A DNA stretch of 23,926 nt from Alkalinema sp. RU_4_3 (GTDB lineage: Bacteria; Cyanobacteriota; Cyanobacteriia; Leptolyngbyales; Leptolyngbyaceae). Of the stretch, positions 12,724 through 23,697 are shown in pieces. The stretch spans positions 1-23,926 of the forward strand of contig JAAUSA010000059.1 in assembly GCA_012031975.1 (NCBI GenBank), read 5' to 3'. A program made the position numbers and the translations under genes. Under the pieces are notes generated by a model that searched no databases, was not told where the DNA came from, and worked only from the letters and a program-made list of their open reading frames with translations. The first letter of the stretch is position 1. Each line of letters opens with the position of its first letter.

Positions 12724-13368
12724 ATGTTGATAGAATCTCCTCCAAAACCGATCGGTGAAAAGCGCCTCACTTTCCATAACCTGACTTGGCCTGCCTTCAA
12801 GCAGATTCATAGTCTGCTGGCCGCCAATACCCGCGCCCGCTTCACCTATGATCATGGCACGCTTGAAATCACCATGCCCCTGGAAATCCACGAACGATCG
12901 GCCCGCTTAATTGAACGTTTTATCCTAATTCTTGTGATGGAAATGGGCTTGAAACTTAAAACCATGGGTTCTACGACCCTCGATCGCGAAGATCTCCTCA
13001 AAAGCGCTGAGCCCGATAACGGCTACTACATTCAAAATTATGCCCAGGTGGCTGACCATGAAATCGATCTCGATATTGATCCGGCTCCCGATCTAATTGT
13101 TGAAGTAGATATCACCCACACCGATTTGAACAAAGATAGTCTCTATGCTTCCATGGGCGTGATGGAGTTTTGGCGATTTGACGGTAAAAACTGGCGGATT
13201 CTCCAGCTCCAGGATGGTGAATATGTGGAGGGCGATCGATCGCCCACGTTTGCTCTTGTCTCTAAATCCGATCTCTATGAATTCCTGAAAATTGCGTTTC
13301 GCGACGAAATTGCTGCTGAAATGGACTTCCGACAGCTCATTCGTCAGCGATTGCAAGCATTAAATTAG
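12724..13368 (+). CDS. Uma2-family (DUF820) putative restriction-endonuclease-like protein
   Basis: 214 aa. TLEITMPLEIHERSARLIERF...PDLIVEVDITHTD...EFWRFDGKNWRILQL matches the abundant cyanobacterial Uma2 family. Confidence 0.85.
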   Translation: MLIESPPKPIGEKRLTFHNLTWPAFKQIHSLLAANTRARFTYDHGTLEITMPLEIHERSARLIERFILILVMEMGLKLKTMGSTTLDREDLLKSAEPDNGYYIQNYAQVADHEIDLDIDPAPDLIVEVDITHTDLNKDSLYASMGVMEFWRFDGKNWRILQLQDGEYVEGDRSPTFALVSKSDLYEFLKIAFRDEIAAEMDFRQLIRQRLQALN

Positions 13369-18731: not shown

Positions 18732-19337
18732 ATGGCTTACAGCGATTTTAAGACGGTTGGCTCGGTTAAGGCGGCCTTTGGACTGACCACGATCGAATCT
18801 GTTCAGTTTCTCCCACAGGTGCCTCCAGTGGCTCCAGGTGAAATTCTGACGGCAGTTTTGGCGGAGAATTTACCGTTGGCGACGGCTAGTGGGAGTGAGA
18901 AGGCGCGATCGGAGTTGATTATCAGTCCTGTTTTGGTGGAGGTGAGGCGGCAGCTCGATCGCAAGATTGGGCTATTTTCTGGGGAGGATTTTACGGTTGA
19001 TCCGGAGGCAAAGCTGAGTGGACGGTGTGATTTTTTGATTAGTCGATCGATCGAACAGCTTGAGATTGAAGCTCCGGTGGTGGTGTTGATTGAGGCAAAG
19101 CAGGCAGATTTGAAGTTGGGGTTGGGGCAATGTATGGCTGAGATGGTTGCGGCTCAGCGGTTTAATCAAGCTAGGGAGAAGCCTCTTCCGGTGATTTATG
19201 GTTGTGTGTCGAGTGGGATTCTCTGGCGGTTTTTGAAGTTGGAGGGGACTGTGGTGACGATCGATCTGACGGATTATGCGATTACGCCTGTCGATCGGAT
19301 TTTGGGTTATTTGACGTGGATGGCGGAGAAGGGTTAA
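18732..19337 (+). CDS. Restriction-endonuclease-like (PD-(D/E)xK) protein that resembles the HsdR N-terminal domain family (HSDR_N-like stand-alone domain)
   Basis: 201 aa. RCDFLISRS...VVVLIEAKQADLKLG (D..EAK nuclease-core-like) and PVIYGCVSSGILWRFLKLEG match the pattern of the small cyanobacterial HsdR-N-like proteins from memory. Its codon usage (T/G-ending) differs from the core genes. Confidence 0.55.
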   Translation: MAYSDFKTVGSVKAAFGLTTIESVQFLPQVPPVAPGEILTAVLAENLPLATASGSEKARSELIISPVLVEVRRQLDRKIGLFSGEDFTVDPEAKLSGRCDFLISRSIEQLEIEAPVVVLIEAKQADLKLGLGQCMAEMVAAQRFNQAREKPLPVIYGCVSSGILWRFLKLEGTVVTIDLTDYAITPVDRILGYLTWMAEKG

Positions 19338-19352
19338 AACGAAATGGTGGGC

Positions 19353-19402
19353 GGTGGGTAATGCCCACCCTACGGTTGGATGGAAGGGTGGGCATTGCCC
19401 AC
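19353..19402. terminator. Two similar hairpins between convergent genes: GGTGGG-TAATG-CCCACC at 19353-19369 and GTGGG-CATTG-CCCAC at 19388-19402. They may be a bidirectional terminator or a small hairpin repeat.
   Basis: Stems read directly. U-tails are weak (aaattttgaa downstream). Confidence 0.35.
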
Positions 19403-19431: not shown

Positions 19432-21069
19432 TTACTGTCTGATGATAGACCCTAAGCCTGGCGTATTATCTAATATTTGAATAAGATTGTGATGCCACAT
19501 GGCTGAAATTCTATCAGCACGGTCTATATCTGATGAAACTATCTGATTAATCTCAAGGTCTGACATCATTAGTTGTTCCCTTAAGCCAAGCCCAATGATT
19601 GAATTTAACAGTTTTCCTTGTCTGCTGGTATTTGACCCAGGACCTATTTCTACGTGAGCAACGATTGGATCGATGACGCTACTATGAATGCCGTTTCTCA
19701 GAATTTCTACAGTGTTAGTCACGACATCTGCGCCCTTGAAATATAATCCGGCAACAATTTGAGGCGAGATCCAAGAGCCACGACTAATACAGCTCCATAG
19801 TTCTTGTTCGATCGCCGTGGATCTTTCTTGGAGTGTCAGATAAGAAATAAGTGCTGCTATATGATAGCGCCAATTGTCGGTAGCCAAAAGCCTGAGAGTA
19901 TCTTCGGTCCATGACTTTTGCAATGGCAATTTTGATAGCTCAATAACTGATTTATGGGCTTTATCTACGGCCCCGCCAAGATGAAGCAATCTGAAATAGC
20001 TTGTATCTCTGTAAAAGAGATCATAGCAACCGGAAGCGATAGAATTCATAGGGGTGGCAGTTGCTACATTAATATCTTCAAACTGTTTCATCAGGTCCTG
20101 AACATGGGGATTCGATGTGCCGTAACTGACGATCGCAACATCCAAATCAATATTTCGATACAAGCTCAAGGCACGGTAAATGGCTTTCATAATCCAATCG
20201 GTTTCATTGCCAAAGGCCCCACCGCCGAGAAGCGTTAGAAATACTTGGTTGTTGCCCGTTTTCTTGGCGTTGAGGATAGCGGAGCAGATTGTGGCTTCGT
20301 AGGATGCTTCTAAAATTAACTTGGCAAAACTGGCCCATAGCGATCGGGAATAGGCAGTATAGGCCACAGGTAGCGCGGAACAGTAGGCTTGAGAAACAAA
20401 GTGCTGAACATTATCGAGGGTCACTTCTGTATCCCATTGGATGCCAATGCGTAATTGCTGACGCAGTTCATCACGTTCGGTTTCATCAAGGATTTGCAAG
20501 TGACTAGAAATTTCAGCTAGACCATTTGAGGTAGGCAAAACATAGCCATTTTGCATTCTCCACAGATGGCCATCGGTATTGCCTAAAGCAGCACCAAGGT
20601 CGGCGAGACAGTCTACTTGATTGTTGGCAGATTGACCCATTTGGCCGTTGACGGGGGCAAAGTAGTTGCGATAGATGGTGCCTGCTCCAGCAGCGATCGC
20701 ACAAGCAGGTCCTTGGGTCGGGTCATTGTCATAGATGCCGATGCCCTGCTCAGGCGTGACGTTGGGTGAGACCATTTCTAGGAGATTGAATTGGGAGGCC
20801 ACTTGGAAGAGGGCATTGGCGTTGGCCGGATCGGTGTGGAATTTCTGGATGTTGCCCCTGACCTCACGTAGGGATAGCTCACCGGGTTGAGGGCCACTGG
20901 CTTGGACCCGTTTTCTCAATTCGGCTAGGGATGGTGTTTCTAGGTGACCGCAGGTGAACGTTTTTCCATTGACCTGGGATGTCAGTGCGGTGCCGTCGAT
21001 CGCAATGTTCCTATGAACTTGCTGGGGAGACTGTTCTGGAAAACCTGTCAGTGCTTCAAACCAATCCAT
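19432..21069 (-). CDS. Orphan 545-aa protein of unknown function, likely two domains. The N-terminal roughly 330 aa carry Gly-rich loops GPACAIAAGAGTIY and LLGGGAFGNETDW, reminiscent of macro/PARG-like or SLOG-like nucleotide-binding folds. The C-terminal roughly 200 aa are unassigned.
   Basis: Long clean ORF, low GC (about 45%), no HIP1-type codon bias. The motifs were noted by eye only and no confident family assignment is possible. Confidence 0.6.
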   Translation of the reverse strand: MDWFEALTGFPEQSPQQVHRNIAIDGTALTSQVNGKTFTCGHLETPSLAELRKRVQASGPQPGELSLREVRGNIQKFHTDPANANALFQVASQFNLLEMVSPNVTPEQGIGIYDNDPTQGPACAIAAGAGTIYRNYFAPVNGQMGQSANNQVDCLADLGAALGNTDGHLWRMQNGYVLPTSNGLAEISSHLQILDETERDELRQQLRIGIQWDTEVTLDNVQHFVSQAYCSALPVAYTAYSRSLWASFAKLILEASYEATICSAILNAKKTGNNQVFLTLLGGGAFGNETDWIMKAIYRALSLYRNIDLDVAIVSYGTSNPHVQDLMKQFEDINVATATPMNSIASGCYDLFYRDTSYFRLLHLGGAVDKAHKSVIELSKLPLQKSWTEDTLRLLATDNWRYHIAALISYLTLQERSTAIEQELWSCISRGSWISPQIVAGLYFKGADVVTNTVEILRNGIHSSVIDPIVAHVEIGPGSNTSRQGKLLNSIIGLGLREQLMMSDLEINQIVSSDIDRADRISAMWHHNLIQILDNTPGLGSIIRQ

Positions 21070-21197
21070 GGACCCCTCTTGATAATTGGCGATATTCTCA
21101 TGTTAGACGACAGAACCAGATTTATGACATGAACCATTACCTCGGGACTTCTGGCGATAGCTTGCTGCACTATTATCCATCAGAATGATGCAGGAAT

Positions 21198-21230
21198 GCG
21201 ATCGCTCACCTCTAGAAAATGAGCGATCGC
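21198..21230. promoter_or_regulatory. Inverted repeat of two HIP1-containing 11-mers (GCGATCGCTCA-N11-TGAGCGATCGC) in the divergent promoter region between the 545-aa gene and the astacin gene
   Basis: Read directly. Confidence 0.4.
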
Positions 21231-21478
21231 CTGGAAATCACCGAACTATCACAGTCTTACACAAACTGAAAATCACAGGGGATCGAACCGTTTGGCTGTT
21301 TTGAACTACACTAATTAGAACACTACTAACAAAAATAACTGTATCAATGATGTTATCGCTATCTCTGTCATATAGATATCGTTACTAATATCAAAATTTA
21401 GTCAACTATAGCATCGCTATACAAGGTATTATTGCCACTGTCACCGTAAATCAATAGTGATAATTAAGACAAAGATGT

Positions 21479-21526
21479 CGTACGGCTTTTGGGCTGTTTA
21501 AGCGTACGGCTTTTGGGTTGTTTAAG
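21479..21526. repeat. Tandem duplication of a 24-bp unit (CGTACGGCTTTTGGGCTGTTTAAG x2) upstream of the astacin gene
   Basis: Read directly. Confidence 0.8.
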
Positions 21527-21630
21527 TTAGGTTACAAAACCAGATACATTCCACAATTCTCTTACTATGGGGGAATGAACATACTTCTGTTCCTATTCTT
21601 TAAATAAATATTTCAGAGGTTGACTACGCT

Positions 21631-22983
21631 ATGGCATTACAGAATGAACCTAGTGATCAGAACCAATCTGCGTCCGACAAAGCCAATCTTGCTGTTTGGT
21701 TTCGCACATCGGCAGAAGAGCCAAAAGTAGGATTTATTGCGGGAAATACGTTTGACCTAAAGGAAGTCACGTATTCTGCGATCGATGGAGAAGCTATATT
21801 TGAGGGTGACATCTCCTTCGGATCCGTTGAAGAGATGGAAGCGCTGGCAGAAAATGTCCAGCGTGGTGAGTTTGGCGTGGGCCTCACTGGAGGGCAATTT
21901 CGATGGCCGAATGGCCTCATCCCATACGAGATCGATCCAAGTCTTCCGAATCAACAGCGTGTTATCAATGCTATTCAACATTGGATCGCTAATACACCAA
22001 TTCGATTTGTGCAGCGCACAGCGGCTAATGCTGCACAATTTCCCAACTATGTACGCTTTGTCGATCGCAATGCCTGTTTTTCTCAAGTAGGTATGCGTGG
22101 AGGTATGCAGGAAATTTCCCTAGGACTGGGATGCAGCACGGGTTCTGCTATCCATGAAATTGGCCATGCCGTTGGATTATGGCATGAACAAAGTCGAGAG
22201 GATCGCGATCGCTTTGTCCGCATTTTGTGGCCGAATATTGCAACTCAGATGCGCCACAATTTTGACCAGCATATTGCTGATGGGGATGATATTGGTGCCT
22301 ATGACTTTGGCTCAATTATGCATTACCCATCGAGTGCGTTCAGTGTCAATGGACAGCCTACGATTGAAACGATCGGTGGACAAGCCATTGGCCAACGGAC
22401 AGGGTTAAGTGCGGGAGATATTGCTGCAGTTCGGGCAATGTATGGTGTTGGCTGGGAATCGCTTGGCGGTGTGCTGAGTTCTGGTCCTGATGTATGCTCC
22501 TGGGCTTCTGGGCGACTGGATGTGTTTGTCCGAGGCACGGATAACGCCCTTTATCATAAGTGGTTTGATGGGGGTTGGTCTGACTGGGAGTCCCTTGGCG
22601 GTGTGCTGACTTCAGATCCAACCGCTGTATCCTGGAGCAATGGCAGAATTGATGTGTTTGTCCGAGGCACAGATAATGCCCTTTATCATAAGTGGTTTGA
22701 TGGGGGTTGGTCTGACTGGGAGTCCCTCGGTGGTGTACTGAGTTCTGGTCCTGATGTCTGCTCTTGGGCTCCAGGGCGACTGGATGTGTTTGTCCGAGGC
22801 ACAGATGATGCCCTTTACCATAAGTGGTTTGATGGGGGTTGGTCTGACTGGGAGTCCCTTGGTGGTGTGCTGACTTCAGATCCGAGTGCTGTATCCTGGA
22901 GCAATGGCAGAATTGATGTCTTTGTGCGGGGTACAGATAATGCACTGTTCCATAAATGGTTTGATGGGGCCTGGCGACCTTAG
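21631..22983 (+). CDS. Astacin-family (M12A) zinc metalloendopeptidase zymogen without a signal peptide, fused to four tandem 44-aa Trp-rich lectin/beta-propeller-blade-like repeats
   Basis: HEIGHAVGLWHEQSREDRDRF is the astacin HExxHxxGxxHE zinc motif and SIMHY is the Met-turn. The N-terminal FEGDIS matches the astacin pro-peptide aspartate-switch motif. The N-terminus MALQNEPSDQNQSASDK has no hydrophobic signal. The C-terminus has 4 x (WESLGGVL.S.P...SW..GR.DVFVRGTD.AL.HKWFDGGWSD). Confidence 0.85.
   Translation: MALQNEPSDQNQSASDKANLAVWFRTSAEEPKVGFIAGNTFDLKEVTYSAIDGEAIFEGDISFGSVEEMEALAENVQRGEFGVGLTGGQFRWPNGLIPYEIDPSLPNQQRVINAIQHWIANTPIRFVQRTAANAAQFPNYVRFVDRNACFSQVGMRGGMQEISLGLGCSTGSAIHEIGHAVGLWHEQSREDRDRFVRILWPNIATQMRHNFDQHIADGDDIGAYDFGSIMHYPSSAFSVNGQPTIETIGGQAIGQRTGLSAGDIAAVRAMYGVGWESLGGVLSSGPDVCSWASGRLDVFVRGTDNALYHKWFDGGWSDWESLGGVLTSDPTAVSWSNGRIDVFVRGTDNALYHKWFDGGWSDWESLGGVLSSGPDVCSWAPGRLDVFVRGTDDALYHKWFDGGWSDWESLGGVLTSDPSAVSWSNGRIDVFVRGTDNALFHKWFDGAWRP
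22453..22980 (+). repeat. Four tandem 132-bp DNA repeats (copies 1/3 and 2/4 nearly identical, i.e. a duplicated 264-bp pair) encoding the 44-aa blade-like repeats
   Basis: Near-identical DNA seen directly at 22453-22584, 22585-22716, 22717-22848 and 22849-22980. The minus ORF 22358..22945 is an antisense artefact. Confidence 0.9.
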
Positions 22984-23051: not shown

Positions 23052-23089
23052 CTCGGATTGCCACTATTCCTAACTTTGGATCACCAATC

Positions 23090-23449
23090 ATGTCCATGCA
23101 ATGTCTTGTAGAAGGTGAGATTGCATTCGAGAATACAGGTGCATCATTTGTGGGTGCAACAGCCTATATTCGCCTTGAGGCTGCTAATCAAACTGATGCG
23201 GCATCCAGCATTATTGCTGAGCAAGTTATCCCAGATGTCTCCCATGAAGCAGGAGATTCTCAAACGCTAATCATCAGATTGAGTGGCCAGATTCCCAATG
23301 AAAAGACAAGCTGTATTGTCACAGTCCATATTGATGTGGATGGAGATAGGCAAGTGAGTCAAGGTGACTATATCAACATGGAAAGTTACCCAGTCATAAC
23401 CTATGGTCATCCTCAGCAGATCTCAATATCTGTCCGGCAAGTTAGGTGA
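23090..23449 (+). CDS. Hypothetical 119-aa protein encoded immediately downstream of the astacin gene. It may be a cognate partner or inhibitor; this is speculative.
   Basis: Complete ORF with the same strand and low-GC composition as its neighbours; no signal peptide. Confidence 0.45.
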   Translation: MSMQCLVEGEIAFENTGASFVGATAYIRLEAANQTDAASSIIAEQVIPDVSHEAGDSQTLIIRLSGQIPNEKTSCIVTVHIDVDGDRQVSQGDYINMESYPVITYGHPQQISISVRQVR

Positions 23450-23531
23450 AAGATAAACTGGGCCTCGGATGGTGAACAGCTATCTTTGTTCTGCTGGATG
23501 CGGTTATAATGGCTAAAATTATCTGTAAATC

Positions 23532-23697
23532 CTAGAGAAGACTCTTCCGGTGATTTATGGTTGCGTGTCGAGTGGGATTCTCTGGCGGTTTTTGAAGTTG
23601 GAGGGGACTGTGGTGACGATCGATCTGACGGATTATGCGATTACGCCTGTCGATCGAATTTTGGGTTATTTGACGTGGATGGCGGAGAAGGGTTGAG
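23532..23697 (+). pseudogene. Orphan 3-prime fragment (last roughly 55 codons plus stop) of an HsdR-N-like gene. It is about 97% identical to 19172..19337 and forms a roughly 165-bp direct repeat around the 19.34-23.53 kb block.
   Basis: Base-by-base comparison shows 3 substitutions (tgtgtg/tgcgtg, cggatt/cgaatt, taa/tga). Identity begins at ...CTCTTCCGGTGATTTATGG and ends at GGCGGAGAAGGGTT. There is no upstream homology or start codon. Confidence 0.75.

What the first reader, a model, noticed from the sequence alone, without database searches (positions are those of the whole stretch)
19432..21069. 545-aa orphan protein with glycine-rich loops suggesting a nucleotide/ADP-ribose-binding fold
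I recognise no family. The N-terminal half contains GIGIYDNDPTQGPACAIAAGAGTIY and, about 140 residues later, VFLTLLGGGAFGNETDWIMKAIY. The second motif resembles the PGGxGTxEE loop of LOG/SLOG proteins and also the xTGxYGxP loop of macro domains. The first resembles their glycine-rich phosphate-binding loop. The C-terminal roughly 200 aa (...RLLATDNWRYHIAALISYL...IGLGLREQLMMSDLEINQ) are a separate unassigned domain. Sensor-effector proteins built from SLOG- or macro-like domains are common in conflict systems. The gene is convergent with a PD-(D/E)xK-type gene and sits on the atypical island.
Basis: inference. Interest (0 to 1): 0.7.

Follow-up and report, generated by a model that had tools for sequence, protein, structure and literature searches.

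The report
Unannotated PARG-like macrodomain fused to orphan
The 545-aa ORF is two neighbouring genes joined by a small in-frame deletion: a member of a very large, strongly conserved but unnamed family with the ADP-ribose-binding macrodomain fold (closest to bacterial PARG, but without PARG's catalytic motif), and a rare helical protein of unknown function.

The parts
19432..21069 (-). Complete 545-aa ORF (stop codon included): chimera of N module, linker and C module
   Evidence: ORF listing and translation. Alignment to the separate proteins P0003 and P0121.
20077..21069 (-). N module, aa 1-331: macrodomain-fold protein of a large unannotated family, PARG-like
20773..20808 (-). Family motif I, FQVASQFNLLEM (aa 88-99). 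It sits at the end of a core beta-strand and the start of loop 1, where the catalytic loop of macrodomains lies. Q89, Q93, N95, L97 and E98 are invariant.
   Evidence: Invariant columns in the diverse alignment A5. QVASQFN occurs in 239 of 270 members. Strand 87-90 is followed by a low-pLDDT loop at 93-126.
20662..20745 (-). G120 and R134 are invariant; G109, Y113, D116, T118, Q119, P121, C123, N135 and Y136 are nearly invariant.
   Evidence: (TQGP in 262 of 270 members).
20206..20238 (-). Loop 2, LTLLGGGAFGN (aa 278-288): diphosphate / distal-ribose loop carrying the G[AV][FY] patch.
   Evidence: GGG[AV][FY] occurs in 240 of 270 members. The motif definition is from Rack et al. 2020. The strand 275-279 / loop / helix 290-303 geometry is in the model.
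20050..20076 (-). 27-nt linker encoding DINVATATP (aa 332-340), derived from the former 5' leader of the C gene. The 59 bp that hold the stop codon and two hairpins in L003 are absent here.
   Evidence: DNA alignment and raw sequences. Translation.
19432..20049 (-). C module, aa 341-545 plus stop. It still begins with the ancestral ATG of a separate ~205-aa gene. It belongs to a small unassigned family with motifs NWRxHL, GSWVSPQ, GPG and DxD..IAxxW, and is predicted all-helical (low confidence).
   Evidence: Standalone homologues P0121 and P0122. 18 homologues found by profile search. Alignment A7. No PDB or Pfam match. AF2 pLDDT 37. GC 0.414 against 0.501 for the N module.
19354..19402 (.). 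18-nt inverted repeat (94% complementary, 13-nt loop) in the 94-bp spacer between the convergent genes. Possibly a bidirectional terminator or a repeat element; not part of the protein.
   Evidence: The simple terminator scan found nothing, because there is no T-run.
18732..19337 (+). Convergent 201-aa PD-(D/E)xK gene (context). It is syntenic with the N gene in L003 and L127 at 95-96% amino-acid identity.
   Evidence: PADLOC PD_DExK 3.1e-51. BLASTP.

Best explanation
The ORF encodes a chimeric protein. It arose when a 59-bp deletion removed the stop codon and intergenic hairpins between two adjacent genes (shown). The N module (aa 1-331) is a macrodomain-fold protein from a very large, very strongly conserved family that the searched libraries do not name. 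Its nearest structural relatives are microbial-type PARGs (shown). By analogy with all characterised macrodomains, it should hold an ADP-ribose moiety. The GGGAFGN loop would clamp the diphosphate and distal ribose (inferred from the conserved G[AV][FY] patch). The long invariant loop 1 (FQVASQFNLLEM ... TQGPxCA ... RNY) would supply a family-specific catalytic centre in place of PARG's GGG..QEE. The invariant E98 and near-invariant D116 and Q119 are candidate catalytic residues (inferred). The most likely activity is hydrolysis of an ADP-ribosyl linkage, or processing of a phosphorylated ADP-ribose derivative. The second option fits the recurrent fusion of the family to DSP-PTPase phosphatases of the PTP-SAK, PTP-NADK and Tc-R-P types, and to a canonical Macro domain (inferred). 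The substrate is unknown. The C module (aa 341-545) is an unrelated small helical protein of unknown function. It lies between the macro gene and the PD-(D/E)xK gene only in this lineage, so its fusion is most likely a recent local accident, not a designed sensor-effector architecture.
Against: No sequence-level link to any macro, PARG or TIGR02452 model: Pfam, NCBIfam, PDB phmmer/hmmsearch and hhalign are all negative. The assignment therefore rests on a predicted structure. The two key loops (93-126, 282-287) are exactly the low-confidence parts of that model. I had no coordinates and could not superpose residues, so the catalytic residues are guesses. The PARG and MacroD catalytic motifs are absent, which is also compatible with a non-catalytic binder. 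Gene context gives no substrate clue. The fusion is seen only once and cannot be checked against reads.
Confidence: 0.6

Rival explanations
1. The N module is a non-catalytic ADP-ribose or nucleotide-signal sensor ('reader'), and the fused C module is its effector. This would make a one-polypeptide sensor-effector of a conflict system, acting together with the convergent PD-(D/E)xK nuclease.
Against: The family is overwhelmingly standalone (~330 aa) with no conserved partner in 77 loci. The C module has no recognisable effector fold or motif. C-family genes elsewhere are never next to N-family genes. The fusion is unique, and L127 has N and PD without C. There is no PADLOC hit. The dense set of invariant polar residues suits an enzyme better than a reader.
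Confidence: 0.15
2. The 545-aa frame is not a functional fusion. Either it is an assembly or sequencing artefact, or the deletion is a recent, neutral or damaging lesion, and the cell effectively has a tail-extended macro protein with or without an internally initiated C protein.
For: The fusion was found nowhere else among 5.8 billion proteins; every top hit is 328-347 aa. Relatives have separate genes. The internal ATG of the C gene is preserved.
Against: The linker is exactly 27 nt and in frame. Both modules keep all family-invariant residues and have no internal stops. The Shine-Dalgarno-like GAGGGAG seen in L003 is lost in the window, so independent initiation is less likely. A clean 59-bp difference is not a typical homopolymer error.
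Confidence: 0.15
3. The N module is a bona fide poly(ADP-ribose) glycohydrolase: a divergent member of the microbial PARG / DUF2263 / TIGR02452 family with the same mechanism.
For: Microbial PARGs are the best structural matches in three searches. The G[AV][FY] loop is present.
Against: GGGx6-8QEE occurs in 0 of 270 members. There is no match to PF10021, PF05028 or TIGR02452 even at E <= 1. Identity to DrPARG is 7-11%. Bodo saltans virus carries both this family and annotated microbial PARGs as distinct proteins.
Confidence: 0.07
4. The N module is a LOG/SLOG-type Rossmannoid nucleotide-binding or nucleotide-processing domain.
Confidence: 0.02

Closest known systems
Microbial-type PARG (DUF2263 / PF10021 / TIGR02452; e.g. 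D. radiodurans DRB0099, T. curvata PARG, S. coelicolor SCO0909)
   Different: Sequence identity is 7-12%, and there is no HMM-level match. The catalytic GGGx6-8QEE loop is absent in all 270 members checked. It is replaced by a roughly 35-residue invariant loop, FQVASQFNLLEM...TQGPxCA. This protein is about 80 residues longer. Bacterial PARGs hydrolyse PAR and ADP-ribose on RNA 2'-OH and 5'-phosphate (PMC11833690). No activity is known for this family.
MacroD-type macrodomains (PF01661; MacroD1/2, YmdB, Af1521, viral nsP3/nsp3 macro)
   Different: The Nx6GG[VLI]D motif occurs in 1 of 270 members. There is no Pfam match, and hhalign finds nothing. This protein is about twice the size.
Giant-virus and protist 'uncharacterized proteins' (Yasminevirus A0A5K0UBT0, Bodo saltans virus A0A2H4UVR4 / A0A2H4UUF0, Perkinsus olseni KAF4737033.1) and the enterobacterial plasmid protein WP_118860659.1
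   Same: These are true members of the same family: 33-34% identity with TMq 0.78-0.83, 47% identity for Perkinsus, and about 46% for the plasmid copies.
   Different: None has a name or a tested function. Several carry extra domains (RING, EF-hand, FYVE). None carries the window's C module.
Macro-containing Thoeris ThsA and the DarG antitoxin (macro domains in conflict systems)
   Different: Those proteins always have a cognate partner gene (ThsB or DarT). This family has no conserved partner and no PADLOC match.

Membership tests
Macrodomain superfamily (Pfam clan CL0223) | Three-layer alpha/beta/alpha macro fold | tested here: met
Macrodomain superfamily (Pfam clan CL0223) | Loop 2 (diphosphate-binding) with the hydrophobic patch G[A,V][F,Y] | tested here: met
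   GGGAF at aa 282-286. GGG[AV][FY] occurs in 240 of 270 family members. The motif is as defined in PMC7050489.
Macrodomain superfamily (Pfam clan CL0223) | Significant match to a clan HMM (PF01661, PF10021, PF05028, PF14519, PF10154 ...) | tested here: not met
   No Pfam family at E <= 1. Profiles A3 and A5 against PDB sequences found nothing. hhalign against a canonical Macro gave probability 0.1%.
Macrodomain superfamily (Pfam clan CL0223) | Binding of ADP-ribose or a derivative | not testable with these tools
   Needs ITC, DSF or a co-crystal. The binding loops are the low-pLDDT parts of the model.
PARG (canonical PF05028 and microbial DUF2263 / TIGR02452) | Catalytic loop signature GGGx{6,8}QEE | tested here: not met
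   Regular expression matched 0 of 270 family members and not the window protein. The relaxed form GGx5-10QE[ED] also matched 0 of 270.
PARG (canonical PF05028 and microbial DUF2263 / TIGR02452) | Match to the PF10021, PF05028 or TIGR02452 models | tested here: not met
   No Pfam or NCBIfam hit at E <= 1.
PARG (canonical PF05028 and microbial DUF2263 / TIGR02452) | Hydrolysis of poly(ADP-ribose) | not testable with these tools
   Biochemical assay required.
MacroD-type hydrolases | Catalytic loop Nx6GG[VLI]D | tested here: not met
   Found in 1 of 270 members; absent from the window protein.
LOG / SLOG | Rossmannoid LOG fold with the PGGxGTxxE motif | tested here: not met
Known anti-phage defence systems (PADLOC-DB v2) | Match to a defence-protein HMM and a conserved multigene neighbourhood | tested here: not met
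   No PADLOC hit for the ORF; only the neighbouring PD_DExK gene matches. There is no conserved neighbour in 77 loci.
The unnamed N-module family itself (~330-aa FQVASQFN / GGGAFGN proteins) | Full-length similarity plus all family-invariant residues | tested here: met
   67-79% identity to 120 listed members over aa 1-331. All 14 invariant and 44 near-invariant columns of A5 are listed by the residue present in the window protein.

The most novel reading that the evidence does not exclude
The N-module family is a previously unclassified class of macrodomain enzyme with its own catalytic loop (QVASQFNLLE / TQGP in place of GGG..QEE). It would erase or process an ADP-ribose-derived modification or signal not handled by PARG, MacroD, TARG1 or NADAR enzymes. 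One candidate is a phosphorylated ADP-ribose conjugate that is finished off by the frequently fused DSP-PTPase. The family has spread by horizontal transfer to many bacterial phyla, protists, giant viruses and conjugative Klebsiella and E. coli plasmids.
Probability: 0.35. Interest if true: 0.7.

Novelty: new variant of a known kind. Interest (0 to 1): 0.55.

Why it matters
ADP-ribosylation 'erasers' are central to DNA and RNA repair, toxin-antitoxin systems, phage defence and counter-defence, and virus-host conflict. Their known classes are few. This family has at least 4033 clusters at 50% identity and 57-69% identity between distant bacterial phyla. It has members in protists, giant viruses and 341 mostly conjugative plasmids, 323 of them from Klebsiella, Escherichia or Shigella. 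It has the macro/PARG fold but none of the known catalytic signatures, and no name in Pfam, NCBIfam, PADLOC, PHROGs or RefSeq. If it is catalytic, it defines a new active-site solution on the macro scaffold and probably a new substrate. That is directly testable with a cheap recombinant protein. The window itself adds a natural example of gene fusion by a small deletion, seen alongside its unfused (L003) and insert-free (L127) states.

Tried and rejected
- Sequence-family searches of the full ORF against Pfam, NCBIfam, PADLOC, PHROGs and PDB sequences found nothing.
- Profile searches with the close (A3) and diverse (A5) family alignments against PDB sequences gave only chance hits. One was E 0.44 to a Cas DxTHG protein across the GGGxF loop, which I judged to be chance.
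- A 59-aa fragment around loop 2 searched against PDB sequences returned spurious ankyrin/DARPin hits.
- hhalign of A5 against a canonical Macro protein found nothing.
- The afdb50 fold library was unavailable.
- The C-module AF2 model from 3 sequences had pLDDT 37, so I did not use it for a fold search.
- The C-module profile against PDB and Pfam gave nothing significant.
- A metagenome-contig scan for more C-module loci found none.
- Neighbourhood clustering of 77 genome loci found no conserved partner. The best was an enoyl-CoA hydratase at position -1 in 5 loci.
- A GNAT acetyltransferase sits upstream of the N gene in L001 and L003. An HMM search showed this is lineage-local: 2 of 838 neighbour proteins, none adjacent.
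- The literature trail for the 'Swiss Army Knife' DSP-PTPase and for any description of this family produced nothing relevant. The link between those phosphatases and NAD/ADP-ribose systems rests on the Pfam family names (tool output) and on my recollection of comparative-genomics papers from the Aravind group, which I could not verify here.
- The phage collection (INPHARED) has no homologue.
- The simple promoter and terminator scans were uninformative.

Full report
OBSERVATION. The ORF is real: 19432..21069 on the minus strand, ATG start, 545 aa. Both quoted motifs are present. GIGIYDNDPTQGPACAIAAGAGTIY lies at aa 109-133 and VFLTLLGGGAFGNETDWIMKAIY at aa 276-298. The gene is convergent with a 201-aa gene at 18732..19337 (+). 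That gene matches the PADLOC model PD_DExK ('CAS-associated') at 3e-51. The last 6 kb of the window has lower GC (0.469) than the 4-17.6 kb stretch (0.555). The rest of the window carries ordinary cyanobacterial genes: bilin reductase, LytB, nitrite reductase subunits, a Ser/Thr kinase and a Wzy-type ligase. No tRNA gene is present.

NOT AN ORPHAN, AND NOT ONE PROTEIN. The full ORF has no hit in Pfam, NCBIfam, PADLOC, PHROGs or PDB sequences. A homology search nevertheless hit the 8000-candidate ceiling. All 120 listed hits are 328-347 aa, 66-79% identical to the query, and cover only aa 1-~333.

The C-terminal 213 aa searched alone found two proteins, both standalone (205 and 203 aa). In the closest relative, the JGI metagenome contig L003, the gene order is: GNAT, then a 336-aa gene, a 68-bp spacer, a 205-aa gene, and then the convergent 201-aa PD-(D/E)xK gene. 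This is syntenic with the window, but with two genes where the window has one.

Base-level comparison shows what happened. L003 has 86 nt between the last shared codon (GAA) and the ATG of the second gene. These 86 nt include the stop codon, two hairpins and a GAGGGAG Shine-Dalgarno-like site. The window has 27 nt there, encoding DINVATATP in frame, and keeps the second gene's ATG as Met341. So the 545-aa ORF is N module (aa 1-331; 20077..21069), a 9-aa linker, and C module (aa 341-545; 19432..20049).

A third state exists in L127/L128. There the N gene is followed 15 bp later by the same PD-(D/E)xK gene (96% amino-acid identity), with no C gene at all. The C module also has a much lower GC (0.414) than the N module (0.501) or the PD gene (0.513). 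The C gene is therefore a lineage-specific insert between N and PD, later welded to N by a deletion.

THE N MODULE: SIZE AND SPREAD OF THE FAMILY.
- An exhaustive HMMER scan of 1.84 billion representatives found 4033 clusters at E <= 1e-3 and 1016 at E <= 1e-30.
The best 80 come from Cyanobacteriota, Chloroflexota, Planctomycetota, Acidobacteriota, Desulfobacterota, Gammaproteobacteria, Binatia, Bacteroidia, Synergistales, Riflebacteria and others. They are 57-69% identical to the query, which is remarkable conservation across phyla.
- Members also occur in protists: Perkinsus olseni, an MMETSP transcript and EukProt Artemidia.
- They occur in giant viruses: GVMAG contigs, and Yasminevirus, Bodo saltans virus and Klosneuvirus.
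- They occur on 341 plasmids: 260 Klebsiella, 58 Escherichia, 290 predicted conjugative, about 46% identity.
- There is no match in 50,697 phage records.
- Wherever a source gives a name, it is 'hypothetical' or 'uncharacterized'.

THE N MODULE: MOTIFS. Rack et al. 2020 define PARGs by the catalytic loop GGGx{6,8}QEE and the diphosphate-loop patch G[A,V][F,Y] (PMC7050489).
- Across 270 family sequences the catalytic signature is absent (0 of 270). The MacroD signature Nx6GG[VLI]D occurs in 1 of 270.
- GGG[AV][FY] is present in 240 of 270. In the window it is GGGAF at aa 282-286.
- PGGxGTxxE (LOG) occurs in 0 of 270.
- Over 70 divergent representatives (39-56% identical to the query), the invariant residues are G41, Q89, Q93, N95, L97, E98, G120, R134, N174, G175, Q227, L253, T279 and G282.
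- The near-invariant residues include D116, T118, Q119, P121, C123, N135, Y136, S231, P234, Y257, E258, F286, N288 and W292. The window copy has all of them.
- These residues concentrate in loop 1 (after strand 87-90) and loop 2 (after strand 275-279). Those are the positions of the catalytic and diphosphate loops in macrodomains. They are also the low-pLDDT segments of the model (93-126, 282-287), as expected for ligand-ordered loops.

THE N MODULE: CONTEXT AND FUSIONS. ORF calling and clustering on 77 genome loci found no conserved neighbour. The best is an enoyl-CoA hydratase at position -1 in 5 loci. The GNAT upstream in L001 and L003 is lineage-local. Plasmid copies sit in accessory regions. 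One lies near an SRAP peptidase and, a few kb away, a TIR + macro pair. Another lies near J-domain, Hha, HEPN and SIR2 genes. No partner is fixed. Among 56 representatives longer than 360 aa, the recurrent partner is a DSP-PTPase of the Pfam families PTP-SAK, Tc-R-P and PTP-NADK (8 of 56). The same fusion occurs in four Planctomycetota loci. Other partners are EF-hands (4 of 56) and single cases of canonical Macro, SnoaL, FYVE and DUF6508. Tandem triplications also exist.

MECHANISM (INFERRED). The N module most likely binds an ADP-ribose moiety in a macro-type cleft. GGGAFGN would grip the diphosphate and distal ribose. The invariant loop 1 would provide a new catalytic arrangement, with E98, D116 and Q119 as candidates. 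The strong cross-phylum conservation and the dense invariant polar residues favour an enzyme acting on a chemically fixed substrate. The phosphatase and Macro fusions point to ADP-ribosyl or phospho-ADP-ribose chemistry. The nearest characterised enzymes, bacterial PARGs, remove ADP-ribose from PAR and from RNA 2'-OH and 5'-phosphate (PMC11833690). I could not superpose coordinates, so residue roles are hypotheses. A binding-only role is not excluded.

THE C MODULE. A profile search raised the family to 18 relatives. All are ~200-aa standalone proteins without Pfam domains. The named source is a Spirulina MAG. Conserved motifs are NWRxHL, LWxxxxxGSWVSPQ, HxxxGPG and DxDxxxIAxxW. The invariant residues are W60, R61, S92, W93, S95, P96, Q97 and W185 in C-module numbering. 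Neighbours vary: Sua5/YrdC plus a 260-273-aa unknown plus a GyrI-like gene; Uma2 plus XisH/XisI; an HTH gene; and others. None is an N-family gene. There is no PDB or Pfam match. The AF2 model is unusable (pLDDT 37) and suggests only an all-helical protein. Its function is unknown. Its fusion to the macro module looks like a local accident and not a designed architecture, although a functional chimera cannot be excluded.

COMPARISON AND NOVELTY. Functionally and structurally the N module works like a macro/PARG-type ADP-ribose-binding domain. It is not a member of PARG, DUF2263, MacroD or LOG by their defining motifs or models; each was tested and not met. It belongs to a distinct, very large family that the searched libraries (Pfam 2025, NCBIfam 20.0, PADLOC 2.0, PHROGs 4) do not model, and that I could not find described in the paper library. 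I could not query InterPro, CDD, AFDB or HHpred, so an existing name elsewhere is possible. I rate it 'new variant of a known kind': a macrodomain with a different catalytic loop. Interest is moderate (0.55). The fold assignment is conventional. The family's size, conservation, presence on conjugative Klebsiella and E. coli plasmids and lack of any annotation make it a worthwhile and easily testable target.

Partly supported. The sensor-effector / conflict-system reading has no support beyond loose proximity to a PD-(D/E)xK gene.

Noticed in passing
window 23535-23696 (+), with 23069-23450: There is a second, truncated copy of the PD-(D/E)xK gene: its last 54 codons, 96% amino-acid identity to L003. 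It lies just downstream of the DUF7282-like ORF, which reproduces the L003 order DUF7282 then PD. The intact PD copy with the N-C gene is displaced by about 4 kb, with the astacin gene in between. The locus has been duplicated or rearranged.
   Followed up: partly
window 18732-19337 (+) versus L003:4738-5343 and L127:6017-6622: The PD-(D/E)xK protein is 95-96% identical between genomes in which the adjacent macro gene is only 77-78% identical and the C gene 70%. This discordant conservation may reflect a multi-copy or gene-converted element. The gene matches a CRISPR-associated PADLOC model, but no cas genes are in the window.
   Followed up: partly
window 19354-19402: An 18-nt inverted repeat (GTGGGTAATGCCCACCCT / AGGGTGGGCATTGCCCAC) lies in the spacer between the convergent genes, and each arm is itself nearly palindromic. 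It may be a terminator or a cyanobacterial repeat element. L003 and L127 lack this insert at the same place.
   Followed up: partly
L003:3987-4045: The spacer that separates the two genes in L003 consists of two short GC-rich hairpins (GCCCGC..GCGGGC and AGTCC..GGACT). P0001 ends with a similar ...SARN tail. A small palindromic element seems to define the normal 3' end of the macro gene in this lineage.
   Followed up: no
window 21631-22983 (+): A 450-aa astacin-family metalloprotease with four DUF346 repeats. It scores 300.8 bits against the NCBIfam 'LegP' equivalog (Legionella Dot/Icm effector), just above the cutoff of 300, which is unexpected in a cyanobacterial window.
   Followed up: no
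L095 (Klebsiella plasmid NZ_CP102886.1) 1742-7057: The plasmid homologue of the N module lies between an SRAP peptidase gene and an IS903B element. A TIR-domain gene plus a macro-domain gene (a Thoeris-like pair) lie about 2 kb further on. On another plasmid (L096), HEPN and SIR2 genes are within 6 kb.
   Followed up: partly
BFVD hits, (Bodo saltans virus): One giant virus encodes at least three paralogues of this family, one fused to a RING finger, as well as separately annotated microbial-type PARGs. The two families therefore coexist and are not redundant.
   Followed up: no
P0132 (1229 aa), P0136 (1107 aa, Burkholderiales bacterium 8X VWX63375.1): These bacterial proteins contain three tandem copies of the N-module domain.
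   Followed up: no
window 12724-13368 (+), L123, L129: Uma2-family PD-(D/E)xK genes recur near both the N-family and the C-family genes in cyanobacteria, together with XisH/XisI, ParE and HEPN/MNT genes. These loci are rich in small selfish or TA-like genes.
   Followed up: no
window 21070-21630: A 560-bp stretch with no ORF of 80 aa or more lies upstream of the macro gene, where L001 and L003 carry a GNAT acetyltransferase gene. The GNAT is missing from the window, and the synteny breaks exactly at the macro start codon.
   Followed up: partly
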